A DNA stretch of 20,905 bases, from assembly GCA_036867785.1 (NCBI GenBank), contig CP145420.1, positions 1,240,001-1,260,905 of the forward strand, in the 5' to 3' direction. The DNA is from Plasmodiophora brassicae (taxonomy: Eukaryota). The position numbers and the translations under genes are program-made. Of the stretch, positions 2 through 20,905 are shown piece by piece (position 1 is the stretch's first letter; each line of letters starts with the position of its first letter). Under the pieces are notes generated by a model that worked only from the letters and a program-made list of their open reading frames with translations, did no database searches and was not told where the DNA came from.

Positions 2-2500
2 TGGATTCCCGTCGCGTTCTTTCGCAGCGAGATCTGTTCCGCCGGGCAGGAGAACATTGGCAGGTTTGCCGACGCCCTCAATCGAACGTTCTGCGCCGAG
101 TGCCGGCCGGGGCACTTCTCGGCAAACGGCAGCGCGTGTGTGCCGTGCCCCATGGGGACGTTCGCCGACGCACCCGGTATGTCGTCATGCCAGCCATGCC
201 CGTACCTGTCGACGACGCTGCATACGGGAAGCAGGTCGCTGTCCGACTGCCTGTGCACAGCGGGGTCCTACGAGCGCATACGGGCGAACACCCAACTGGT
301 CTGCATCGCCTGCGACCCGACCGGGTATGCGTCATCGATCGGGCAGCTCCAGTGCACGCCCTGCCAGTCGCACTCGACGACGAACACGACGGGAGCCACC
401 TCAGCGGGATCCTGTGCCTGTACGGAAGGGTACTACGAGGCGCAGGAAGGGCACTGCCAGGCCTGCCCAGGTGGAGCCCAATGTGCTGGCAGCGGCGCCA
501 TGCCATTGGCGAAGGTGCACCACCGTTATGCGCTTGCTGCAGCGACGACGACGTTAACGGCATGTGTGTGTGTGTGTGTGTGTGTGTGCAGGTCGGGTAC
601 TGGAGCAGCGCAGGCAACCCGCTGGAATTCTACCTGTGCTCGTCACCGGGTCGCTGCCCTGGCGGCTTGCAGCCTGGCACCTGCCCAGCCGGGTACGACG
701 ACGTGCTGTGCGCCGACTGTCAATCGGGCTGGTACACCAGCGGCCCCATCTGCAAGGAATGTCGCAGCTCGATCTGGCAGGTCACCCTGACGGCCGCCTT
801 CTTCCTGCTGATCGCCGTACCGTGCCTGATCATCTTCATTGTGAGTCCATACGCCTGCCCCAGACGTCCCAGGACCGTTCGTCGATGGGCCTGACCAATC
901 TACAATATGCACGCAGACGATCGATATGACGAAGAACAGGCAGAACGAGCATTCGTCGGTGAGCTGGACGGTGGCCGTCCGCCAGGCCGTCGAATTCTGC
1001 CAGCTCCTGTCGGTGGTGGGCGGACAGGTCATCCGCGACGTGACGTTCGCCGTCCCCAAGTATATTACGGCGGTCGGCAGCGTGTCGACGGTGTTCTCGT
1101 TGTCGCCCGGTCAGTTCGAGGTCGAGTGCCTGCTGAAAACGTCGTGGACCCTCTCGTACACTGTCCGGACCACTGTGCTGAACACGTTCGCTGCGCTGGT
1201 CATCACCGCCACCGTCCTCAAACAGTACTCGCCCAGGTTCTTGCCACTGCCACACGCCAACAAACTGCTGTCGGGGTCGTTGCGATTGCTCGACATCCTC
1301 TACATCTACGTACGTGTGTGTTTTCACAGCCAACCCTAGATTGACGATATGCTGCTTACAGTACTTGTCAACGTTGCTGGAGTTGTTCAAGTGCTATGAG
1401 CAACCAACCAGCCCCGGGTTGTACACGTCCGAGTACGATGCCAGGATCCGCTGCTACGCTCCCGGCCAATGGATGGCTCTGCTTCCAACGGCCATTGTTG
1501 GCCTCTTCCTGGCCACGATCGGTACGAGTACGGATGCGCCAGTGTCCACGCTTGGTCCTGACATGTACGTGCGTGCCTTGTACAGCGTATCCGCTCATGG
1601 TGGGCGCCATTATGTGGAGCGCCCCGTCGCAAACGTCCAACGACGATTTCTTCGAGGTCGGCCACGTTTGCACCGACCACACGAACTATACGTAATTGGC
1701 GACTGATCGTTGGTCGCTGTTCAACCTGCAGATCTTCGCCCACTACTTCCGCCCGTATCACAACAAGGTCCCACGACCTGCCTCCAACGACATGTGAAGG
1801 AGCTAACGCTTCGTGTTCCGTTTCGTAGATGTGGTTCTGGTACTGTCCGACATTGTTGCGCAAGCTGTTAGTATCGTTCCTGCTGTCCTCCATTGGGTCG
1901 GACGACTCGTCGACAACGGCCATTGGCGCGATGATTGTCTGCGCCCACCTGGCCGGCTCCGACCTGTGCCGGCCGTACTTCCACAACGTCAACAACCGCC
2001 TGGAAATGGTACTCGGCACGTCGCTGCTGTCTGTCCTTATCCTTTTGCTGGCCATGGAGTCGGTCCCGGCGAACCACCAGGCCAGCGTCAACCTGATTAC
2101 GGTGCTGATCCTGATCCTCCTGATCGGGTCGCTCTGTATCGCCCTGTGGACGATCCTGACCGAGTTGGCCCGAACACTGGACGCGAACAAGCACCCGATA
2201 CTGTGCACGGCCCTACGATGGTGCACGATGCGGCAGCACGTGACGCAACCGATGCTCGTCAATGCCGTCGTGGACCAGGCCGCGCGAGCTCACGACACGC
2301 ACCTCCTGTCTGAACCGCACGTTCGTCAGTGGATCGAGCTGGCCAGCGATGATGAAATCGTAGCCCTGAAAGACGCCATTGAATCACTATCAATCGCGTC
2401 CGGTGCCGACCCTGGGGCGACGGGCGAACCAGGTCCCACCCCGAAACCGCCATTATTGCCTGGCAATCGTATCCACAGACCGTCCTACGTGCGGTTCTAA
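2..2500 (+). CDS. Cys-rich (ephrin-receptor-like/GCC2-GCC3-type repeats) multi-pass membrane protein, 5'-partial, 7 exons visible
   Basis: Exons <2-514, 592-840, 917-1309, 1362-1521, 1586-1656, 1732-1767 and 1829-2500 join in frame across GT..AG introns of 52-77 nt. CxxCPxGxF repeats and PLAK|VGYW are followed by several hydrophobic helices and a FRPYHNK|MWFWY...LRKLL motif typical of these protist membrane proteins. TAA stop at 2498-2500. Confidence 0.88.
563..588 (+). repeat. (TG)13 microsatellite in intron 1, directly before the CAG acceptor
   Basis: Read directly from the sequence. Confidence 0.95.
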
Positions 2501-3199: not shown

Positions 3200-4699
3200 T
3201 AACCAGTGTATAGACTGGGTTGGGTGATCGGGGCCGCCTGCAAACAACCATGGGAACGAGGTGTACACCTGTCAGCACGGTCTACTCCCGGGGACTTTTT
3301 CATGGCTGTCAAGCGGATATCAGAGAACGGCGCGCAGAATGAGCTGGATGGTCGGCCTTGTTTAACATTGGCATGGGACACGTGAATGCACCAAAGGCAA
3401 CAAGGACTCGGATTGCCACAGGTGCCTCGTTGGGTTGGCATCGTACACGTACAGGGGTGTGACGCAACCATGCACGAAGAGTAGGCCAGGTAGCGCTCGG
3501 TGGAGAAAAGTGCCTCAGTGATGCACGTGCCGTGCCGAGGTTACGAAGCCGACCATCCAGTTGATCTCGCCGTTCTCATATATCCGCTTTACAGGCATGT
3601 CGATAGGTTCAGGCTGGCGCCCGGCCATGCGGTTTCGCTGTTCGCGTTCACATCGTGGGACAAGGCCAGGCGAAGATGGATCGCGCCTTCTGGAGTGCAA
3701 TGGAACGTGGATCGCCTGTCCTGGCGGGCATACGCGTTCGGCGAAGTGTCACCGTCGACCATTTAGGCGTACGTGACCCAGCTCCGCCACGACGACTGAT
3801 TGCATTGAACCGAAGGCGGTGCGGACGATATTGCCCTAGAAATAACGGGCGGACGCGGACGAAACTTTCACGCGGGCAAGCTGCGGCGATTCCTGATGAG
3901 CGCTGAGCACAGGTTTGGCAACTTCGCCATTGAAGGGAAGCCGAAACGATTCGCAGCCCTTGACGCTGCAGTGACACATATTGCTGTGTCACTGGCTACA
4001 ACCCGTGTCATATCGGGGACGCCCGCGTGAAAGTTTCGTCCGCGTCCGCCCGTTATTTCTAGGGCATCGTCCGCACCGCCTTCGGTTCAATGCAATCAGT
4101 CGTCGTGGCGGAGCTGGGTCACGTACGCCCAAATGGTCGACGGTGACACTTCGCCGAACGCGTGTGTCCGCCAGGACAGGCGATCCACGTTCCATTGCAC
4201 TCCAGAAGGCGCGATCCATCTTCGCCTGGCCTTGTCCCACGATGTGAACGCGAACAGCGAAACCGCATGGCCGGGCGCCAGCCTGAACCTATCGACATGC
4301 CTGTAAAGCGGATATATGAGAACGGCGGGATCAACTGGATGGTCGGCTTCGTAACTTCGGCATGGCACGTGCATCACTGAGGCACTTTTCTCCACCGAGC
4401 GCTACCTGGCCTACTCTTCGTGCATGGTTGCGTCACACCCCTGTACATGTACGTAGATGCCAACCCAACGAGGCACCTGTGGCAATCCGAGTCCTTGTTG
4501 CCTTTGGTGCATTCACGTGTGCCATGCCAATGTTAAACAAGGCCGACCATCCAGCTCATTCTGCGCGCCGTTCTCTGATATCCGCTTGACAGCCATGAAA
4601 AAGTCCCCGGGAGCTAGACCGTGCTGACAGGTGTACACCTCGTTCCCATGGTTGTTTGCAGGCGGTTCCGATCGCCCAACTCAGTCTATACACTGATTA
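3200..4699. repeat. Long near-perfect inverted repeat: arms 3200-3877 and 4021-4699, 143-bp spacer
   Basis: Manual arm alignment gives 13 substitutions and 3 small indels over ~680 bp. Mirrored ORFs appear in the track (3500..3766 + versus 4096..4395 -). Confidence 0.97.
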
Positions 4700-5461: not shown

Positions 5462-6140
5462 CGTCGACGACCCGCCGCCATCCCTGCCGGCATATATCGC
5501 CTCAGCCAGAACCGTTCAATACAAGCAGATGAGGTCGACACGCGCGTACGCCGACCCTGCAGGTCGTCCTGGCGTCAGACGGCATCGTTCGCTGAAATGG
5601 GGCGGCGCTCGACAGCGCCGACGTCGTCCCCGCGTGCGTGTCGACCATGGCAGATCAGGCCAGACGAGCGATGGCCTGTTTGCGCTGGCACATGTGCCAC
5701 CGTTCTTCTCGTGTCGCGAAGATGTGGCGCAACTTGGGCAGAGGTTTGCTGATTTCACTACCTACTCGTTTGGCGTGGCAGGTGAACCATGGATGGCGTC
5801 GCCTGGCGTCGCGTTGCCCAGCGCAAACGAAACTGGCAAGCGTCCAGAGCTTTGTGGCACGAAGACACGCCCTGTGGTCAGTTTGCTACAGCGTACAGCG
5901 GGATGGGTGTAATGATTAACCGGCATGACGTTGCAGAAACCCCCGCCGGCTGCGCCGATGACATTGAGCAAGGACATTGCTAACAAGCGCAGCATGCCGC
6001 GTGCACCGGTCGGTGATCATTGTACCCGTCTCGCCTGCTTTACTGACCGTCCATTCGCTGTAGGCACTGGACAAGAGGACGAGTAAAGTCGCTTCTGGAC
6101 TTGCGAACCGTCCTTTCAAGGCACCCAAACTGGTTCGAAA

Positions 6141-6325
6141 TTTGCGCTTCTTTCATCGGTTCGCGGTTGACGTCTTGGACGGGCCGGCTCGCATGTTGGC
6201 CAGGTGTACGAAGATGACGTCTAACACGCGCGCGCGTTGACCGCAGACACACGAACGTACACCTGGCGAACATGCGAGCCGGCCCGTCCAAGACGTCAAC
6301 CGCGAACCGGTGAAAGAAGCGCAAA
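6141..6325. repeat. Nested 70-bp inverted repeat (6141-6210 / 6256-6325)
   Basis: 68 of 70 positions are complementary, with a 45-bp spacer. Confidence 0.95.
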
Positions 6326-6418
6326 GTCGCTTCACAGGCGTGGTATACTGCGTAATTGTCATAGTCGGCGCTGACATCGACATTTAGGAGCGCGGTCGCT
6401 CGGTCGTTACTGCCAGCG

Positions 6419-6670
6419 GGTAACAACGATGCGGCAGGCGTCTGCCGTTCGATTTGCTACGCGATTGCACCGATGCAGATCTTCCGTGCATTGCCCGGCT
6501 GGGAACGTGTCTCCGGCCCCGCGCCCTGGATTGGCCTGTACAATAAGGTGATGAACCCTCGTCTGGGTGTGCAATTGGCGTCCGACATCCTGGTGGACCT
6601 CATCAAGGCCATCAGCAACGCTGACCTGGCGACGAGGTCGTTTGATCCCGGGCAACAGCACGATGTCGAA
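6419..6670 (+). pseudogene. Fragment resembling the N-terminal Cys box and QQD box of a ubiquitin-specific protease (C19), left copy
   Basis: GNNDAAGVCRSICYAIAPMQ...RSFDPGQQHDVE resembles the USP motifs GLxNxGNTCYxNSxLQ...FxGxxQQDAxE. No His box is seen. Confidence 0.5.
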
Positions 6671-6920
6671 CGATCTTGTCGCCCGGTCAGCGTCGCTCAC
6701 GACCCTGATGAGCTCAACCAGTATGTTGGACGCCACTTGCAGAACCAGACGTGGGCTCATGACCTGATTGTACAGGTCAACCCAGGGCGCGTGCCCGGAG
6801 ACACGTTCCCAGCCGGGCCAAGCACGCGCGATCTGGATCGATGCGATGGCGTAGCAAATGGAACGGCAAACGCCTGCCGCATCATTGTTCGATATGCCCG
6901 CTCGCTGGCAGTAACGACCC
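6665..6920 (-). pseudogene. USP-like Cys-box fragment, right copy
   Basis: GRYCQRAGISNNDAAGVCRSICYAIASIQ...RSFD, truncated at the palindrome centre. Confidence 0.48.
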
Positions 6921-7352
6921 AGCATCACGCTCCTAAATGTCCAGTTCAGCGTCGACGATGCCAATTGCACAATGCCCCGCACCTGTGCAGGACGCTGCGC
7001 TTCTTCGATCGGTTCGCGGTCGACGTCTTGTGCGGGTCGGCTCGCACGTTCGCCAGGAGTACGTTCGTGTGTCTGCGGTCAACGCGCGCGTGTTAGATGT
7101 CATCTTCGCCTCAGTACCGGCGCTGTCTGTTTTCGCACCAGTTTGGGCGCCTTGAAAGAGCGGTTCGCTGGTCCAGCAACAACTTCTTGCGCCTACAGCG
7201 GGCGGACGGTCAGTAACGCAGGCGAGACGGGTACAAGGAACGCCAACCGGTGCAGGCCGGCATGCTGCGCTTGTTAGCAGGGTCCTTGCTCAGAGTCATC
7301 GCCGGCGGAGGCCTCTGGAACGTCACGCCGGTGTAGGCCTACACCCAGCTCG

Positions 7353-9420: not shown

Positions 9421-9790
9421 TCATCACGGTGCGCCAGATGAAAGAGACGGTCGAGCAGGGACAGGTGATGCTGATGCGGCAAGATCCGATGGAAATCGTC
9501 CAGCAGCCCGGTCCCGATGGTCAGTCAGTATGGCGCGCCGCAAGACAGCGGTGGTAGGTGCATGGCCGACAACGATGGTGAGTGGATACCTTGGCATAGC
9601 TGATTTCTCCTTTGAGCAGGATGTGGTCCTTCAGGCGGTCGTCCAAGTCGGGCCACCGCTGTCTCGCGGCGCGCCATACTGCCCACGTGCCCATCGGAAC
9701 CGGGCTGCTGGACGATTTCCATCGGATCTTGCCGCACCAGCATCTGCTGCCCTTGCTCGACCTTGACCTTTCTCTGGCGAACCGTCGTGA
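9421..9790. repeat. Diverged inverted repeat: arms ~9421-9554 and ~9653-9790
   Basis: atgctgatgcggcaagatccgatggaaatcgtccagcagcccgg (9468) is mirrored at ~9700-9743. Spacer ~98 bp. Confidence 0.93.
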
Positions 9791-9899
9791 CACCCAACTC
9801 GCTGTACGGGTATAGCAACTGACCACATGGTGGCGTGTCGTCGTGCCACAAAGCTTCGGACGCTTCGCACCGTGATGGCTTCGTTTGTTCTGTGGCACA

Positions 9900-11260
9900 C
9901 ATCCATCGTCAGGATACGTGTCTGCAAACAGTGTCCAACAACGTTAACCTGGCTGTCGCGCGAGGTCGCGATGCCGATCATGGCCGACTCCGCCCCGGCC
10001 ATGCGGTCGCGCAGCTGCTGGGCGTGCTGTACGCGCCCGTGCTTCATGACGGCGCCCAGCAGGCGGTTCGTCTTGTCCAGGTCGTCGTCCCCGGAGATGA
10101 CGCGCCCAGCGATGACGATGTCCCTCGTCTTCGGGCTGTCCGCAGGTCGCGACACGAACGACTCGGCCGCGTTCCACTGTATCTCGTGGCGTTCGGCGTA
10201 CGCCTGACAGTGGCCCGCCATCTCCTGGGCCGTCTCCTCGTCGATGGCGTGCAGCGTCGTGTCGTCCGCGTACAGCTGGCAGGGCATGGGCATGTCGTCG
10301 ATCAGCACGTTGCACAGATCGGGGCGAGCCGATCGCGCCCTGGAACAGCCCGACTTGGGCCGGGATGCGACGCGATCGCTCGCCGTCCATGCTGATAATG
10401 AAGTAGCAGTTGTCGAACAGGGCCTGAATGACGGCGATACTCGCGGGCGGCACTCCACGTCCGACCAGCATGTCATACACAAGGCGACGGCGCGCGGTGC
10501 CATAGGCCTTGTGCATGTCGAGCAGGATCTGGGTCAGCGGGCGTTCGCGTGGTCACAGTACGACGTCAGCTCGTCGGCGCACCAAATGGCCTCTGGCACG
10601 TCGATGCCGCGACGGAAGCCGAATTGCAGCGGGTGCATGTCCAGGTACCCGGCGCCGTGCATGTACGCGAACAGGGCACGACTCGAACGTCTTGCGTAGG
10701 TGCGCCTGCAATGTGACCCCCCTCCAGTGTGTCGCCATGGCCGGGGATCAGTGTTGGCCTTGTGGTGCGGGATGACGAATGCTGAGCGCCATGTTGAAGG
10801 GATCATCTCGACCGTGTACAGGCGCTCGGCCAATGACGGATACCCAGGGTGCCGCCGCATCCCCATCCGCCTTGAGTAGATCCATCGGCAGATTGTCCGG
10901 GCCGATCCCCTTCACCCAATCGTGCTTGGCGATGACAGCCGCCACCTTGGATTCCGCGAGCATGGCCCGCTCGTCATCGGACAGGTCGCATGGTCGCCGG
11001 ACCGGTCTATAGCGCGGGCCATCGCGGGCGCCCGGCTGGCGGAACACGTCGTCCCAGTGGTCGGCGAACTCGTCGATCGACGGGCGGGCAGACGGCTTCA
11101 GGGCGGCAGCCTGCGAGAAACGATGGGCCTTGGCACGGGCGCAGGAAGAACCTCAGGGGCGCCCGCTGCAGAGCGCTCCAGTTGGGCCGCAGCGACGACG
11201 CGCGCCCTCGGTTGGACTTCGACCCCGGGCAGACGGCGACCTCCTCGAGGGTGCCACGCA
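9900..11260 (-). mobile_element. Degenerate non-LTR (LINE-type) retrotransposon, reverse transcriptase region, multiple frameshifts, 5'-truncated
   Basis: Ordered motifs across frames: EFADHWDDVF, KGIGPDNLP, IPSTWRSAFVIPHHK, WRGVTLQAHLRKTFE, LQFGFRRG, LDMHKAY, GLFQGAIGSP, QLYADD, IQWNAAES. No endonuclease domain is seen. Ends are approximate. Confidence 0.88.
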
Positions 11261-13338: not shown

Positions 13339-15502
13339 CTACTGCTGGTCCTGGGGGTCCACCGGCTGCTCCTCGTCGTGTTCCTGCTGGTCGTCACCGG
13401 GCTGGGCGGCGGCTGACGCGCTGTCGGTCTCCGCGTGCTCGATGTCGTTCAAGTCGGGGCCAGCTGCGCCTCCTTCGATACACTGCTCCTGCATGGCTTG
13501 CTCGGCCGCCAGCACGGCCGTTCGCGCCGCCTGATTGTCCGGGTCGCCATCAGCGGGTCGTTGTCCAACGCGGCCCGGCCGCCGAACGACGCCAGCCCCT
13601 GGGCGGAGACCGCCGATAAGTTGTCCTGTCAAGTCGCCCAATCCTTTCGCTTGCATCATCGCAAGAATGTTGTCGATTTTCGCGTCGATGCTCTGATCCC
13701 TCGCCGGCAGGATGGCTTGTGAGAGCGCAATGATGTTCTTGGTCTTGTTCGGAGCCAGCACTCTTTGGGCAACCAAGTTCTCGATGAAGATCCGTACATG
13801 CGCGCCTAAACAGATCCGGCAGGCCGCCGATGGGATTCTCATTCAGAGCCACGAGTTCTCTGTGATCGGACATGCGGATCGCCTCCCATGTGTAATCCAC
13901 GTGTAACAAAGCGCTTCGCCTGTTGACGAGTCAGTTCCGAAATTGCGTTAGGTTCACATGAATGCGAATTACTTCTGAATCGATATCATCTTCAGGAAGC
14001 TGCTGCCGATCCGTAGTAACGTTTAGCGCTTTCAACGGTTTTGTGCCGTGCTGACAGCATGATCTGCCCCAGTTCACCTTTCCCCCAAATAGCTAACAAA
14101 TCGCCAGTTTTTCGGAGGGTATGCGTTCCCCAAACTCGCCCGTCATCGCGTCCAACAACGTCCGAGAGCAGCTTCTTCAGTCTATGGACACGATTCGCCG
14201 TCAAATACACATTCGTAAGTGCACCATACGAGACCTACTGGTTGTTAAAGGTGGTGAAATCGAAGCAGTCACTAGAACCCCTTCTTCTTGGGAAATAGGT
14301 AACCCGACGTTATGCCAGATACGCTGAGCCACAGTAGCAGGTGGCTAACCAAGCATAGTTCGGGAACGTCTGTACAGCGCCATACCATTAACGGGACAAA
14401 CGATCCATCAGCCTTGCCCTTGATCTTGACGCCCATGCAGTTAACGTCGCCATTATCGGGATTGACAGATACCAGACTCGTCAGAATGTCTTCAATTCGG
14501 AATGGACACCCTTCGGCGGATCGGAGGAAGAGCTGGCAGTGGAAAAGGATCATCGTATAGAGACGAAGTCCCTCATATCGATCTGCGCTGAGTAGCGCTT
14601 TGCGAATGGCGATCAATTCATGTGGCATCAGCGGCGAATCACCTTGCGCAGTGTAATCAACGAGGTCGATTTGCGTCACGCGACGGTACCGGTTCTTCAC
14701 GTTCTGATGCGATCGCGGGCAGCCCGATCTCCAGAAGCGCGGGACTCCAGCGTGAAAATTACACGATACACCATTGTCCCGATACGCGACAATACACGCA
14801 GGACATGGTTCTGAGTACTGTCCGCTCTGGTGCCTCGCAACATGCAAATCACTGACAGCTGAGGTTGCATGAGTTCGGATCGTTCCAGGCACCCGTTGCG
14901 AGGATAGGCTGTCTCGAGAAGTAATCCAGAACGGGATCAACGCGAAGAGAACTGACAGTATCGTCACGGTGCACAACAACGGGAGTGCCAGGTGACAGGA
15001 CCTTGAAATCTATGAACGCCATGAGTGTGTCTGCACTCATCGATGGACAGAATTCGGTGGGAGCTCGCTCGTCGAGAATGATCAATGACTCAAAATCACC
15101 AATTCGTTTGCAGAACAGGGCTAGCTGACGGTACAGCTGCCTGTACTGCTTGTGCGAGTTCTCCTTCAGGACGCGATTGCCAGTCAGTTGCCCGCCGTGA
15201 GCGGAGAAGCGCAGGCCCATGCGGGCCAATGCCTCGTCGACTCTCTGCCGAACCACATCTTCTTGCGACGCTGTGAGCGGACGCATTCGCAGATGCACAC
15301 CACTGTCAACCAAGTTGTCAACTGCAGACGCCCCGAAAGACCGCCTCTCTTGCCGTAGATTGCGCCGACGGGGTTGCAGTGCCCCCGATCCCGAAGGGGG
15401 AAGGGTACGGGGAACGGGAGGGGAAGGAGCGGGGAAGGTGGCCATTTTGCTACCGGATAACGTCTTTCCTATAGCACGATCTGCATCGGCGCCCAGCAGC
15501 AT
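13339..15502 (-). mobile_element. Crypton-like tyrosine recombinase gene, frameshifted, with two introns and an acidic low-complexity tail
   Basis: Catalytic set LFL-R-SAE, IKG-K-AD, GT-H-TL-R-KTG, SAR-H-K, KR-Y-Y. Predicted introns 14182-14238 and 13920-13972 (GT..AG on -). Frame changes near 14865, 14278, 13995 and 13810. Start ATG is at 15502 or 15445. Confidence 0.85.
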
Positions 15503-15810: not shown

Positions 15811-16944
15811 TTAAAAACCGCTGTCGAAGCGGCGTCGCATCTCGGCACCGGATAGCACGGCGTACGCCTCGCAGACGTCCTTGAACTTAGCCTCAACGGT
15901 TTTCAGCTCTTCGTTTGTCGCGCCGTAGTTCTTGTCTGGGTGGTACTGGAGCGCCAGCTTACGGTACGCCTTCTTGATCGCGCTTTGGTCGGCATATTCC
16001 GGAACGCCCAGGATCTGGTAGTAGTCCTTCCGCTTCGATTTCGCGAGCATCGCTTCTTGATTTCGTCTGGCCTGTTCCCCTGCCGCGTCCCTTTTGCGCT
16101 GCGCTCGTTCTCGAGCTTCCTTCTCGCGCTGCGCTCGTTCTCGAGCTTCCTTCTCGCGCTGCGCTCGTTCTCGAGCTTCCTTCTCGCGCTGCGCTGCTCG
16201 TTCTCGAGCTTGCGCCTCGCGCTGCGCACGTAGTAGAGCGTCGACCCTCTCGCGCTGCGCTGCTCGTTGTCGAGCTCGCGCCTCGCACTGCGCACGTAAT
16301 AGAGCGTCCCTCTCGCGCTGCGCTCGTTCTTGAGCTTTCGTCTCGCGCTGCTCTCGTAGTCGAGCTTCCCAGTCGCGCTGCGCTCGTTCTTGAGCTTTGG
16401 TCTCGCGCTGCTCTCGTAGTCGAGCTTCCCAGTCGCGCTGCGCTCGCTCTCGGGCTTCCGTCTCGCGCTGCGCTCGCTCTCGGGCTTCCGTCTCGCGCTG
16501 CGCTCGTTCCCGAGCTTGTTCCCATTGCTCGTTCACCTCTCGAGCTATCTTTTCCTGTTCTCGTTCATCCTGCAATCGCACTTCCCTTGCTATGGCTAGT
16601 GCGCATACGGTCAGACCCACCAGCGCAACACGTGTCCACGTTCTCGACTTCTTCTTAACGACAGGTGGCGCCGGTTTCCGTGTTGAGGAGAGGATGGAGC
16701 GCAATGCGACGACAGCGCCGCCTACAGCTGCAGCGGGCTTGACCCATGCGGGGATGGTCCGGATCCGGGTCGGGACGGGCGCTGCGCTCACGTCGGTAGA
16801 TCGCAAAGGAGTACCCCACGACGCCGACAACGCCGACGTCGGGTCCGGAGCGGGTTTGCGGAATGCAAACAGCCCGACGGTGACGCCGACGACGACAACG
16901 ACGGCGATGGCAACGACAACGCCCGCCACGTACGCGTATCGCAT
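15811..16944 (-). CDS. Membrane-anchored coiled-coil protein with C-terminal DnaJ (J) domain, 377 aa, single exon
   Basis: ATG at 16944 starts a hydrophobic anchor, followed by further hydrophobic segments, E/R/A/Q repeats, then [11 protein letters not shown]...[16 protein letters not shown]...[13 protein letters not shown] with an intact HPD. Confidence 0.9.
16094..16520 (-). repeat. Coding minisatellite (30-bp unit, [10 protein letters not shown]-type; one 60-bp higher-order pair)
   Basis: gcgctcgttctcgagcttccttctcgcgct is exact at 16101, 16131 and 16161, with variants up to ~16520. Confidence 0.92.
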
Positions 16945-17505
16945 GACTGTAGTACCGTGTCTGCAGACCCTTGACTTACACAATGACACGGAAACAGAAT
17001 GACGTTGATCGACCACCTCTCCACGACGACGTCAGCTTGCCACGTCATCGTGCTAAAATCCGTGCACGCAGTTTTCCTAAATATAAATATAGTCCAGTGA
17101 ACCGTCCGCGGACGCCGACCTCAGTCGGTTATTCCGTGTTGTGGAGACAATCGTCGTCTGTCATCATTGTCGCAACTTGTCCTCGCCTAACACTCGTCAT
17201 CGTGACGTATCGATGAGGCCACCGTGATGACCCATCGAGGAACTTATTAAAACAAGCAGGAACCAAGCAGGAACCAAATCCGTAGGGCAAAGGGTAGAGC
17301 GCAGGGGGCTCCAATATAGCGCTTCGCGGCGAGGCATGTGCTGCTGCTGGCCGCGAGCCGACCGTTTGCCAGCTTGCATGTGGTATCGGCGGGTCGTGTT
17401 CCCGGCCCAGGCTGGCCAGCCGGGCCAAGTTGGCATGGCAACAAATTGAGACGTCAACCGCGTCAAGTCATATTCGGCGCCACGAGCAGATCTCCCAAGC
17501 CGGTA

Positions 17506-20500
17506 CAGTAATTGCTCCTATTAAGGTTTCCTGTAATAAGCCCCGAACCCTGAATTCGATGGCTTATGACCCCGAACCCCGATTTCGAGGCATATCCGGG
17601 GTCTTAATAAAAGACATAGGGCTAAATTTAGATGTTTGGGGTCTTATTAGGAATTCCACATAACGTTTTGCTGTTTTTTTTGGTGCACGGACTACGCGGC
17701 GGTGCCGCGGCGCAAGCTCATTGACTCATTGTGCATTGTCGAATGGTGTTGTAGTGCTTCTGTGCGAATGTCATCGATGCTGGAAGAGCTCCGTGAGCTA
17801 TCTGGGCTGCTGAAAGATGATATTATAACACCTTCGGAGTTCGATGATATGAAACGAGCGCTTATCGCCCGATACAAGGGATCAGGCAACACAGGTCCCA
17901 GCGACAACAGTCACCTCGAGGAATCGAGTGAAGGTCAGCGAGTTTTTGCCACGAACGTTCGTGAATAACTGTCTCTCTCGTAGACGTGAATGGAAAGCAA
18001 GAAGCAAGACCCGCATCGTGTGCGTCTTCGTCAGACAGAACTCTTGACCCTTTCCGTCCTGGCTCTGCTGCTCACAGTACGTGTTGTGGTTACTTGTTCG
18101 TTCTTGAACTAATGACGTTTGCTGACAGGTAGTTCATCGAATGCAACGTCCGGAAAGACTGTGACGTCGCAAGCGACTCTGCATAAATACTTCGGGCCGT
18201 CCATGTTAATGTCCCGTGGCTCCGGCGAGATATTCGTGTCCTCCAAGTGTCCAGCTATGGTCAAGGACAGGTTCACATGCTCTGAATGTGATAAACGCTG
18301 TCAAACCAAACAAGCCCTGATTTCCCACATGAAAACGCACAAGGTCGAGGAAGAATGTATGCCGAATGGAGTTTCTACGCCCAATATTGTGCCTTGTGTG
18401 ATAATTCGTGGTTGTGTCATAGACCAAGCAAATCCCCAGCCTGATGAACAACGGGTTGATGGCCCTTCGTCGAAGCGCCAGCGTTATTCGTTTGAGCGCA
18501 AGGTGGATATTATCAAAGAAGTATTGGACACGCAGCGTCCTAGCTCGGGTGAGAAGCGGTCTCGTGCGCTGGCGGTTCAACTTGTATCCGATGATACTGG
18601 TATACCTGCAACGACCATCGCAAGATGGATGAAGAACGAAGATCAACTACGTGACCGTGTGGCTTCGTCGGCCGATCGTGCCAAGAAGTCCTCGTACAAT
18701 CGCTGTTGGTTGAAGGACTTGCGGCACCTCGAAGAGGTGCTTGCTCGCGAGATCCGCAAAGAGAGGGCGAAAGGTGGTTCCGGGTTAACCGTCAAAGGTA
18801 ACCGTTTTAACTGTGTAATTCCAGGTAGGAAAATATCGAAGAACTGGTCACTCTCAATGGCCAGGCAGATTCGTCGAAGGCCGAACATCGTAAATCCAAA
18901 CAACGCGAAGGAGATTAAGCTCTCGTATGGGTGGTACTATCATGGGTTCCTTCCGAGGCACGATTTCTCCATCAGACGCGGGAACAACCGAAAGAAGATT
19001 GATGCAGTAGCATACAAGCCCATCGTTTACGAATTTCATCAACTACTCGCGAAACGCAATTCCAGTCGTAGTGTATTTCCACATTCCATGTTCAACTTCG
19101 ATGAGGTCCATTCCGCCTAGATGCTCTGTATTGCACTTCTTTGATGCTTTGCAGGTTCCTCTTCCATTCGTGAATGATGGTGACAGACGGACCGTTGACG
19201 ACGTTGGCACAAAGCGAGTCTGGATCAGGCAGCCGGGTGCGGGAGATGAAAAGCGGCAGGCGACACTGTTCCTCTGCATTGGGGCGGATTGTGAGGTCCA
19301 ACCGCGACCCCATGTCATATTTCGCGGCAAGGGTACACAGATTCTCCGATCTGACGAGCCGAATCAATGGGTGTGTTCTTCACTGGACGCTTCAAATCAA
19401 CTTCTAAGTGCCATTTGTCACAGGACTCCAGGGTGTCGGTCCATTTTCAAGAAAACGGATGGGTTGACACCAAGACCGCTGTAAACATCGCGAAGGTCAT
19501 GCAGCAAGATCCTGCGTTCGTAAACCCTGACGAGAATCGGACCTTCCTCTGCGACAACCTTCAATCCCACAAGGCACCAGAGTTTGTCGATTCGATGAAG
19601 TCCTTGGGCGAAATCGTGCTGTTTCCGCCAAACGTTACTGATTTGTTGCAACCTGGTATGTATTTCGTTCACCTTGATTTTCCCATGCTAATTGTCGTTG
19701 ACAGTCGATGCCGGCGCCGGTCGGATGATGAAATATCTGATCGCATCGCGGCTTGATGCGCAGATGGACGATGACGCTGCGTTCTCATCCAAATGGTTAG
19801 GAGGAAAGTTCACGGCTTCCGAGCGTCGCGTCCTCATTACCAACTGGGTGGGTGAAGCGTGGGAGCGGTTGTGTCAAGCGGGGTACATTCATAAGTACTT
19901 CGAGAAGACCGGTTGCCTGCTTGGTACGGTGGGTGCGGATCCCGGCAGGATCAAGATCCAGGGTCTTGATGAGTACCGGTTTATCCCGAACGTCCCGTTC
20001 ATAATTAACGTCGATGACGGGACAGATTCCGACAGCAGCGACAGCGGCGAATTTTCTGAAGGCACCTACAAGGCCGCAGACCCTAGTTCATCGGACGAGG
20101 ACGCGCCTATCCTGTCGTATGAACCCGGACAAAACCGTTTTCGTGAAGGCGACTATGTCGAGGTGTTCGACTCCGATGGCCAGCCGCTACTCACCGGCTC
20201 TGTTACTGCACCGCGTACCTCTCTACACGGACAGCCTGTGCCCGACGGCCACATCGTGGTCGTTATCGCACGACTGCACACTACAAGTTGTCTGGGCGTG
20301 GATCACTTTGGAGAACCTGTTGGCGTCGGAGGATATACTGCCGTCCCTGTGAATCGAGCATTCCTGTGCTGCGACAAATAAATGTTCCGTTTCTTGTTGT
20401 TTGGGCTAATCGGGACCAGTCTGTGGTTGAATTACGCAACGTAACTCCAAGTATAAACTGTGCTCCTGATAAGACCCCAAGCACTGAACCTACCCAAAAA

Positions 20501-20537
20501 ATATTTCACAATAAGACCCCAAACCCTCACAATGCTC
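17506..20537 (+). mobile_element. pogo-family DNA transposon with its right end truncated by the telomere
   Basis: Left end TA|CAGT at 17504-17509. The subterminal motif ATAAGACCCCRAAC occurs forward (~17536, ~17565) and inverted (~17598, ~17634-17652). The right side has tcctgataagaccccaagc (20464-20482, 17/19 complementary to 17634-17652) and ataagaccccaaaccct (20511-20527). Encloses a transposase gene. Confidence 0.8.
17768..20381 (+). CDS. pogo/Tigger-like DDD transposase, 7 exons, 769 aa predicted, apparently intact
   Basis: Exons 17768-17933, 17984-18076, 18129-18773, 18825-19105, 19155-19370, 19424-19655 and 19705-20381 total 2310 nt in frame, with introns of 49-53 nt. Motifs: C2H2 finger CSECDKRCQTKQALISHMKTH, CENP-B-type HTHs (RYSFERK...GIPATTIARW; LSYGWY..FLPRH), catalytic FNFDE|VP, LCDN and LLQP|VD (DD34D). 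Confidence 0.9.
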
Positions 20538-20905
20538 TTAGGGTTTTTAGGGTTTTAGGGTTTTAGGGTTTTTTAGGGTTTTAGGGTTTTAGGGGTTAGG
20601 GTTTTTAGGGTTTTTTTAGGGCTTAGGGTTTTTTAGGGTTTTTTAGGGTTTTAGGGTTTTAGGGTTTTAGGGTTTTAGGGTTTTAGGGTTTTAGGGTTTT
20701 AGGGTTTTAGGGTTTTAGGGTTTTAGGGTTTTAGGGTTTTAGGGTTTTAGGGCTTAGGGTTTTTTAGGGTTTTTAGGGTTTTTTAGGGTTTTTAGGGTTT
20801 TTAGGGTTTTTAGGGTTTTAGGGTTAGGGTTTTAGGGTTTTAGGGTTTTAGGGTTTTAGGGTTTTAGGGTTTTTAGGGTTTTAGGGTTTTAGGGTTTTAG
20901 GGTTT
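20537..20905 (+). repeat. Telomere: TTTTAGGG-dominated array with T2-T7 and CTTAGGG variants
   Basis: A G-rich tandem array running 5'->3' to the window end. Confidence 0.98.

What the first reader, a model, noticed from the sequence alone, without database searches (positions are those of the whole stretch)
20461..20560. Telomere starts inside the pogo terminal repeat, at a telomere-like seed predicted in the element's own motif
Seen: the left end has TA-CAGT, two forward and two inverted ATAAGACCCCRAAC motifs. The right end has only the two forward (inner) motifs, and no outer inverted motifs or ACTG-TA terminus. The last motif reads ataagaccccAAACCCT. An inverted copy of it would begin AGGGTTT, and AGGGTTT is what follows 12 nt later, where the telomere starts. 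Inference: the chromosome broke in the element's end (possibly a transposase cut) and telomerase healed it on a built-in seed. This element family could therefore be prone to creating new chromosome ends.
Basis: partly seen in the sequence, partly recalled or inferred. Interest (0 to 1): 0.8.

Follow-up and report, generated by a model that had tools for sequence, protein, structure and literature searches.

The report
Telomere healed inside young pogo end
A chromosome of the clubroot parasite ends just short of the tip of a recently inserted jumping gene, where telomerase added a new cap in the way it did at many other ends of this genome, and not at the built-in landing site that was first proposed.

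Summary
The truncation is real; the proposed seed is not. Chromosome end C11R of a Plasmodiophora brassicae genome stops 53 nt short of the right end of a 3,086-bp pogo-like transposon with an uninterrupted transposase frame. Two interstitial copies differ from it by 1 and 5 nt. The overlap is 2 nt (CT). Healing on 1–4 nt overlaps is usual here: 19 distinct junctions at 20 of 40 ends. Only 1 of 40 ends lies in this family. The element's best seed, GGGGCTTA, lies 30 nt further on and was skipped. A transposase-made break is about even odds. No read was seen across the junction. The better lead came in passing: junction variants pointed to a single-copy gene with a U6-type promoter and the template AACCCTAAGCCC on C7, a candidate telomerase RNA; a 2021 search supported none in this order. 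The scan noted similar healed ends on other genomes.

The parts
17261..17505 (+). First 245 bp of a host repeat of about 4.4 kb into which the pogo-like element inserted; the rest is lost at this end
   Evidence: 96-97% matches at C6:12915 and C14:1114681 run on across an empty TA site; no Pfam family above cut-off in 29 of its 38 ORFs submitted
17504..17505 (+). TA target site, left copy
   Evidence: intact copies have TA on both sides
17506..20538 (+). pogo-like DNA transposon, 3,033 of 3,086 bp, last 53 bp missing
   Evidence: 1 difference from the C10 copy, 5 from the C19 copy
17506..17647 (+). Left terminal region: 20-nt imperfect TIR (18 of 20 match the intact right end), two forward and two inverted motifs
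18203..20381 (+). Transposase gene, six coding exons, 644 aa: C2H2 finger, weak CENP-B-type HTH, DDE_1, DD34D; stop codon 157 nt before the break
   Evidence: P0001 maps onto the window exon by exon; Pfam
20469..20482 (+). Right-end inner motif 1
20511..20524 (+). Right-end inner motif 2
20537..20538 (+). CT, the 2-nt overlap shared by element and telomere; also the first two bases of the third motif
20539..20905 (+). Telomere, T4AG3 with irregular proximal units and GGGCTTAGGG variants; end of contig C11

Best explanation
A very young pogo-like copy inserted at a TA in a subtelomeric repeat. The chromosome then broke at or near the element's right end, most likely through its own transposase: a cut at one end, or a right end that failed to join during insertion. 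The free end was trimmed by about 53 nt. Telomerase paired the terminal CT with the G-A at the 3' side of its template and added TAGGG onward. Everything distal was lost. Shown: truncation, 2-nt overlap, youth, uninterrupted transposase frame, same junction signature as other ends (about 0.9 for ordinary healing). Inferred: that the transposase made the break (about 0.5) and the template pairing.
For: 53 nt missing against 2 of 2 intact copies. Overlaps of 1-4 nt at 19 distinct junctions, mean 2.1 against 0.6 in the null; 0 of 5,000 simulations reached it. A random break in the element falls in the last 53 nt with probability 1.7% (a post-hoc figure). The family looks active: copies differ by 1-5 nt, and element-to-flank depth is about 3, 5 and 10 in runs X3, X2, X14 (the tool warns that depth is no copy number). 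Three older copies have internal deletions. One older copy has its right end joined at a TA to its own interior in inverted orientation, as expected from a one-ended event. Seeds of 1-4 nt are usual in Magnaporthe (PMC7367193, passages).
Against: One event only. The join is 53 nt from the cut site, not at it. Ends stop inside repeats throughout this genome without any DDE transposase, so the prior for generic erosion is high. No read or contig across the junction was displayed. Transposase activity was not assayed. The telomerase template is a candidate.
Confidence: 0.5

Rival explanations
1. Generic telomere failure. The old end eroded or broke further out, and healing landed in the element by chance, or resection stalled at the protein-bound, hairpin-forming terminal region. 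The transposase did not cut.
For: 20 of 40 ends stop inside a sequence that continues elsewhere; nested truncations such as C17L, C17R and C5R; 10 ends stop inside retroelement frames. The same pattern in Pyricularia is read as telomere failure (PMC8381367, passages). The lost tail folds into a hairpin, -9.8 kcal/mol for the last 66 nt (no shuffle control).
Against: It needs a 1.7% coincidence of position, or a stall that was not shown.
Confidence: 0.33
2. Two steps with a built-in seed of another kind. The telomere was first added at GGGGCTTA in the outer inverted motif, 16 nt from the cut end. A 35-nt deletion between two CT dinucleotides flanking the hairpin then gave today's junction.
For: GGGGCTTA is the longest telomere-like seed on this strand of the whole element (8 nt). 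GGGCTTA occurs once per strand, 16 and 31 nt from the 3' end at each terminus, and equals 7 nt of the candidate template. The CT-to-CT span is 35 nt and would give the same letters.
Against: It needs an extra event. The one-step route gives the same letters and matches 18 other junctions. No end of this genome shows the intermediate: no terminal motif lies near any junction but C11R.
Confidence: 0.06
3. An LTR-retrotransposon integrase nicked this bond in an abortive insertion and left the 3' end that telomerase extended.
For: In an older copy on C10 an LTR element sits in the same spot. The left edge of its 5-bp target duplication ATGAC is the bond at which the C11R telomere starts.
Against: One coincidence, noticed after the fact (roughly 0.5% by position, my estimate). 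No LTR remnant at C11R.
Confidence: 0.04
4. Assembly artefact: a collapsed repeat copy joined to telomere reads.
For: The element is a near-identical three-copy repeat. No spanning record was displayed. Contigs of X2, X14 and X18 run from 20538 into the intact tail.
Against: Those contigs are expected from interstitial copies. All 40 ends have their own telomere. The overlap is 2 nt, too short for an assembler join. The irregular proximal repeats match other ends. X3 shows about three copies' depth and a single-copy path with this window's flank alleles at 17456-17457.
Confidence: 0.05

Closest known systems
Terminal truncation with de novo telomere formation in Magnaporthe (Pyricularia) oryzae (PMC7367193, PMC8381367; passages read)
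   Same: Abrupt join of repeat DNA to telomere on a 1-4 nt seed (19 of 24 events there); nested truncations; ends inside transposons.
   Different: There the elements are telomere-targeted non-LTR MoTeRs and rDNA. Here it is a TA-targeting DDE transposon with no telomere repeats, in a rhizarian.
pogo superfamily of IS630-Tc1-mariner transposons (PMC7386202; passages read)
   Same: TA duplication, short TIR, 3.1 kb, 644-aa DDE_1 transposase, DD34D within the reported DD29-59D range.
   Different: N-terminal C2H2 finger, long acidic and C-terminal extension, five introns, asymmetric subterminal motifs. Family not placed on a tree.
Ciliate chromosome breakage sequences (Tetrahymena Cbs, Euplotes E-Cbs) and Oxytricha telomere-bearing elements (PMC7599177; passages read)
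   Same: Break followed by short trimming (4-34 bp at Cbs) and telomere addition; TBEs are DDE transposons. That TBE ends carry telomere repeats is recalled, not read.
   Different: Those are programmed and recurrent. Here there is one event, the other young copies are intact and interstitial, and the ends carry no telomere repeat.
Chromosome breakage at Ac/Ds ends and healing in maize (recalled, no paper read)
   Same: A cut-and-paste element breaks a chromosome and the end is healed.
   Different: hAT element with genetic proof of transposase dependence; here the cause is inferred from position.
Pol III type-3 telomerase RNAs of plants, ciliates and Blastocystis (PMC8287931, PMC12133305; passages read), for the C7 candidate
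   Same: USE plus TATA at U6 spacing, template within 200 nt of the USE, about 150 nt, single copy.
   Different: The template AACCCTAA is exactly one 8-nt repeat with no one-base overlap, followed by GCCC. No homologue and no pseudoknot were shown.

Membership tests
pogo superfamily | TA target-site duplication | tested here: met
   TA on both sides of the C10 and C19 copies; single TA at empty paralogous sites
pogo superfamily | Terminal inverted repeats | tested here: met
   18 of 20 terminal bases match in the intact copy; right TIR lost in the window copy
pogo superfamily | DDE_1 catalytic domain | tested here: met
   P0001: PF03184 E 4.6e-9, 36.5 bits, cut-off 22
pogo superfamily | DDxD triad, x 29-59 | tested here: met
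   D269, D386, D421, DD34D, assigned from local motifs and not from an alignment
pogo superfamily | CENP-B_N or HTH_Tnp_Tc5 DNA-binding domain | tested here: inconclusive
   CENP-B_N E 0.0051, below cut-off; none at E 0.001 in the spliced protein
pogo superfamily | Placement in the pogo clade and in a named family | not tested
   The homologue search returned 4 proteins, all P. brassicae; no tree built
De novo telomere at a terminal truncation | Abrupt junction with a 1-4 nt in-frame seed | tested here: met
   2-nt CT overlap
De novo telomere at a terminal truncation | Junction spanned by raw reads | tested here: inconclusive
   Only contigs were available and the tables were cut; no spanning record displayed
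   Intact copies read ATGACCCC after the junction
Programmed chromosome breakage sequence | Recurrent breakage at the motif | tested here: not met
   1 of 3 young copies and 1 of 40 ends; other isolates' ends not seen
MoTeR-type telomeric retrotransposon | Non-LTR element inserted in telomere repeats | tested here: not met
   DDE transposon in a subtelomeric repeat, no proximal telomere tract
Pol III telomerase RNA (C7 candidate) | USE and TATA at U6 spacing | tested here: met
   Found at 3 places in 410,504 held bases (overlapping loci): both U6 genes and L089
Pol III telomerase RNA (C7 candidate) | Template at least one base longer than the repeat | tested here: not met
   AACCCTAA is one 8-nt unit and the next base is G; the GCCC flank matches the GGGCTTAGGG variant instead
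Pol III telomerase RNA (C7 candidate) | Pseudoknot, boundary element, terminator | tested here: inconclusive
   Fold z -0.88; T4 run 148 nt after the inferred start; no Rfam family near cut-off
Pol III telomerase RNA (C7 candidate) | Expression, conservation in relatives, activity with TERT | not tested

The most novel reading that the evidence does not exclude
The termini of this pogo family double as telomerase landing sites. The outer transposase-binding motif GGGGCTTA lies on the cut strand 16-31 nt from each end and matches 7 nt of the candidate telomerase template. A one-ended transposase cut would then be healed as a new chromosome end. C11R would be such an event followed by loss of a 35-nt hairpin, and the family would truncate chromosomes across isolates.
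Probability: 0.07. Interest if true: 0.75.

Novelty: new member of a known kind. Interest (0 to 1): 0.4.

Why it matters
The junction is one more telomerase-healed end. It shows that a recently active DNA transposon sits at a freshly made chromosome end of a major crop parasite. Two things found while testing it matter more. First, at least half of this genome's ends are nested truncations of repeats, so chromosome ends seem to be remade often; my searches and the passages read from three P. brassicae genome papers did not describe this. Second, the C7 gene is a testable telomerase RNA candidate (my odds about 0.7) in an order where Fajkus et al. 2021 searched CCCTAAAA and could support none. 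If right, it would make an 8-nt repeat from an 8-nt template with no overlap.

Tried and rejected
AGGGTTT as an element-encoded seed: rejected. A second natural truncation 5 nt away in the old C10 copy: rejected, it is an LTR insertion with a 5-bp duplication and the terminus lies about 18 kb further on. Run X18 was laid in the hope that it was RNA; its contigs cross introns unbroken at depth 3-4, so it gives no evidence on expression. The reads did not settle the junction, and absence of a displayed spanning contig proves nothing. X2 shows none of the window's flank alleles at 17456-17457 while X14 does; this hints that C11R differs between samples but was not resolved. GGGCTTAGGGTTT as template: 37 of 37 matches are telomeric. 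Other template candidates: 30 of 31 non-telomeric AACCCTAAGC sites lack the USE-TATA pair, including L100 and L085, which have longer A runs. Metagenome scan for relatives of the candidate: 10 matches, none homologous beyond the pattern. Host repeat: unidentified. Literature on transposase-caused, telomere-healed breaks at an ITm end: nothing direct in the listings. The supplement of PMC8287931, which may list its ten TR-like loci, could not be read, so the C7 locus may or may not be among them; the supplements of the pangenome preprint are closed and may bear on end variation.

Full report
Setting. The window is the right end of contig C11 of a 25.3-Mb genome in 20 contigs. All 40 ends carry T4AG3 telomeres. 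The four homologues of a transposase exon are all named Plasmodiophora brassicae proteins, and T4AG3 is that species' repeat (PMC6823432, passages).

The element. It runs from CAGT at 17506 to 20538. Two interstitial copies, on C10 and C19, are 3,086 bp long, flanked by TA, and differ from the window copy at 1 and 5 of 3,033 positions. A 644-aa protein, P0001, maps onto the window in six exons from 18203 to a stop at 20379-20381. It has a C2H2 finger, a DDE_1 domain above the Pfam cut-off, a weak CENP-B_N match and a DD34D triad. These fit the pogo superfamily as described in PMC7386202 (passages); I did not place it on a tree. It inserted at a TA 245 bp into a host repeat of about 4.4 kb, whose empty copies lie 13 kb and 8 kb from the ends of C6 and C14. 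If the host copy was whole, at least 4 kb beyond the element was lost.

Intact copies continue after CACAATGCTCT with ATGACCCCGAAC, then one inverted motif and ACTG-TA, 53 nt in all. Three older, complete right ends on C2 and C6 read alike. AGGGTTT is not in them at this place, so it is telomere, and the predicted seed is refuted. Element and telomere share two bases, CT. A seed of two or more bases is on offer at 40% of positions in the element. The longest seed on this strand, GGGGCTTA (8 nt), lies in the lost tail, 30 nt past the junction, and was not used.

Background from the other ends. Among the loci I held, 20 of 40 ends have a paralogue that matches up to the telomere and then runs on. 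C9R and C16R share one junction, so there are 19 distinct junctions. I left out C8R and C19R, whose paralogues diverge 8 and 2 nt before the boundary; 18 ends had no paralogue among my loci. Where several paralogues existed I took the longest match, which leans upward. Overlaps are 1-4 nt, mean 2.1, against 0.6 for random breaks; 0 of 5,000 simulations reached the observed mean. Counting the two left-out ends as zero gives 1.9. C11R is typical. I scanned 54 of 109 listed frames, from 36 of the 39 other ends. Eleven ends carry reverse-transcriptase or other retroelement domains, and at 10 of them the frame runs to within 30 nt of the telomere. The pogo family occurs in the last 5 kb of 1 of 40 ends. 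This is the pattern of Magnaporthe, where 19 of 24 new telomeres used 1-4 nt seeds (PMC7367193, passages) and nested truncations are common (PMC8381367, passages).

Is the join real? Four runs were laid, all as contigs. No spanning record was displayed, and the tables were cut. Contigs of X2, X14 and X18 pass 20538 into the intact tail, as interstitial copies would make them. X3 has about three times flank depth over the element and a single-copy path with this window's flank alleles. The 2-nt overlap is too short for an assembler join. The irregular proximal repeats match other ends: T6 in 90 of 315 units in the first 80 nt, against 50 of 1,222 further out. I put the artefact risk at 5%.

What broke the chromosome? 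For a transposase cause: the break is in the last 53 of 3,086 nt (1.7%, post hoc); the family is young and seems to vary in depth between samples (about 3, 5 and 10 times flank, a rough measure); three older copies have internal deletions; and one has its right end joined at a TA to its own interior, inverted. Against: it is one event, it is not at the cut site, and many ends here break inside repeats with no transposase. I judge it even odds. One coincidence is unexplained: an LTR element in an older C10 copy has a 5-bp duplication whose left edge is the same bond. This hints at an exposed spot between motifs 2 and 3. A two-step route through the GGGGCTTA seed and a 35-nt CT-to-CT deletion gives the same letters and is not excluded, but needs an extra event.

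A lead on the enzyme. Of 40 telomeres, 21 have a C-containing unit in the first 14 nt, against 46 of 1,575 interior units (the boundary rule accepts such units, which inflates the first count somewhat). That points to a template flanked by the complement of GGGC. AACCCTAAGC occurs 79 times, 48 in telomeres and 31 elsewhere; the reversed control gives 62, so the count alone is chance. One of the 31, at C7:884164-884153 (minus strand), has the USE GTCCCATT with TATA 36 nt on. That is the spacing of both U6 genes, and only these three places have it in the loci held. It extends to AACCCTAAGCCC, is single-copy, matches no Rfam family near cut-off and meets a T4 run 148 nt after the inferred start. 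Paired with this template, 17 of 19 junctions have 1-4 matching terminal bases and 2 have none; the CT of C11R pairs with its G-A. Against it: the template has no one-base overlap, the fold is no better than shuffles (z -0.88), no homologue was found and expression was not tested. Fajkus et al. 2021 searched CCCTAAAA in this species and could support no candidate (PMC8287931, passages; supplement not readable). A 2025 review's displayed passages name no rhizarian telomerase RNA (PMC12133305). Searches for one in print.

Verdict. A real, recent, ordinary healing event in the end of a young pogo-like copy. The built-in AGGGTTT seed is refuted, a transposase cause is open, and a family tendency to make ends is not shown. 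Earlier scan notes describe similar healed ends in other genomes and none on this sequence. The score of 0.4 rests mostly on the genome-wide pattern and the telomerase RNA candidate; the junction alone would rate about 0.25.

Noticed in passing
L089 (G000:C7:884303-884089, minus strand): Candidate telomerase RNA gene: U6-type USE and TATA, template AACCCTAAGCCC, T4 after about 148 nt, single copy.
   Followed up: partly
L015-L053 and window end (all 40 ends): At least 20 of 40 ends are abrupt truncations of repeats, several nested in the same element (C17L, C17R, C5R; C8L, C12L, C12R; C20L, C19R). C5L with C10R, and C9R with C16R, share junctions.
   Followed up: partly
telomere arrays, all ends: T6 units outnumber T5 near the junctions (90 against 47 in the first 80 nt), and GGGCTTAGGG variants recur; both fit a short template with 2-nt stutter.
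   Followed up: partly
L057 and L076 (G000:C10:382028-401733): An LTR retrotransposon nest of about 18 kb in the right end of an older copy; its ATGAC duplication starts at the same bond as the C11R telomere.
   Followed up: partly
L059 (G000:C6:1221902-1225103): Older copy whose right terminus is joined at a TA to an inverted 494-bp piece of its own interior, 98% alike. A C16 fragment also folds back (L079).
   Followed up: partly
L038 (C4 right end): A 2.3-kb inverted duplication, 99% alike, with a spacer of about 190 nt, ending 4 nt before the telomere: a fold-back end in a Gypsy-type frame.
   Followed up: no
window 13618-15474: A 1.86-kb repeat with 95-96% copies on C7, C9, C10, C14, C18 and C19. 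Its frame 14272-15009 looks like a tyrosine recombinase by eye; no Pfam match at E 0.1.
   Followed up: partly
window 3200-4699, 5953-7304, 9421-9790: Long nested inverted repeats, arms up to 388 nt at 98%. The frame at 9631-10533 has a YADD motif like a reverse transcriptase by eye; no Pfam match at E 0.001.
   Followed up: no
window 15811-17031, minus strand: Frame with a C-terminal DnaJ domain (E 2.9e-22) after a 30-bp tandem repeat, about 470 bp from the transposon.
   Followed up: no
window 17651-17968: Short frame inside the element upstream of the annotated transposase, SHOCT-like by eye; no Pfam match at E 0.001. The one base private to this copy (17815) is silent in it, and laid contigs all show the other allele.
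   Followed up: partly
window 2-790: Ephrin-receptor-like cysteine-rich repeats (E 7e-17), followed by what looks like a membrane-protein gene.
   Followed up: no
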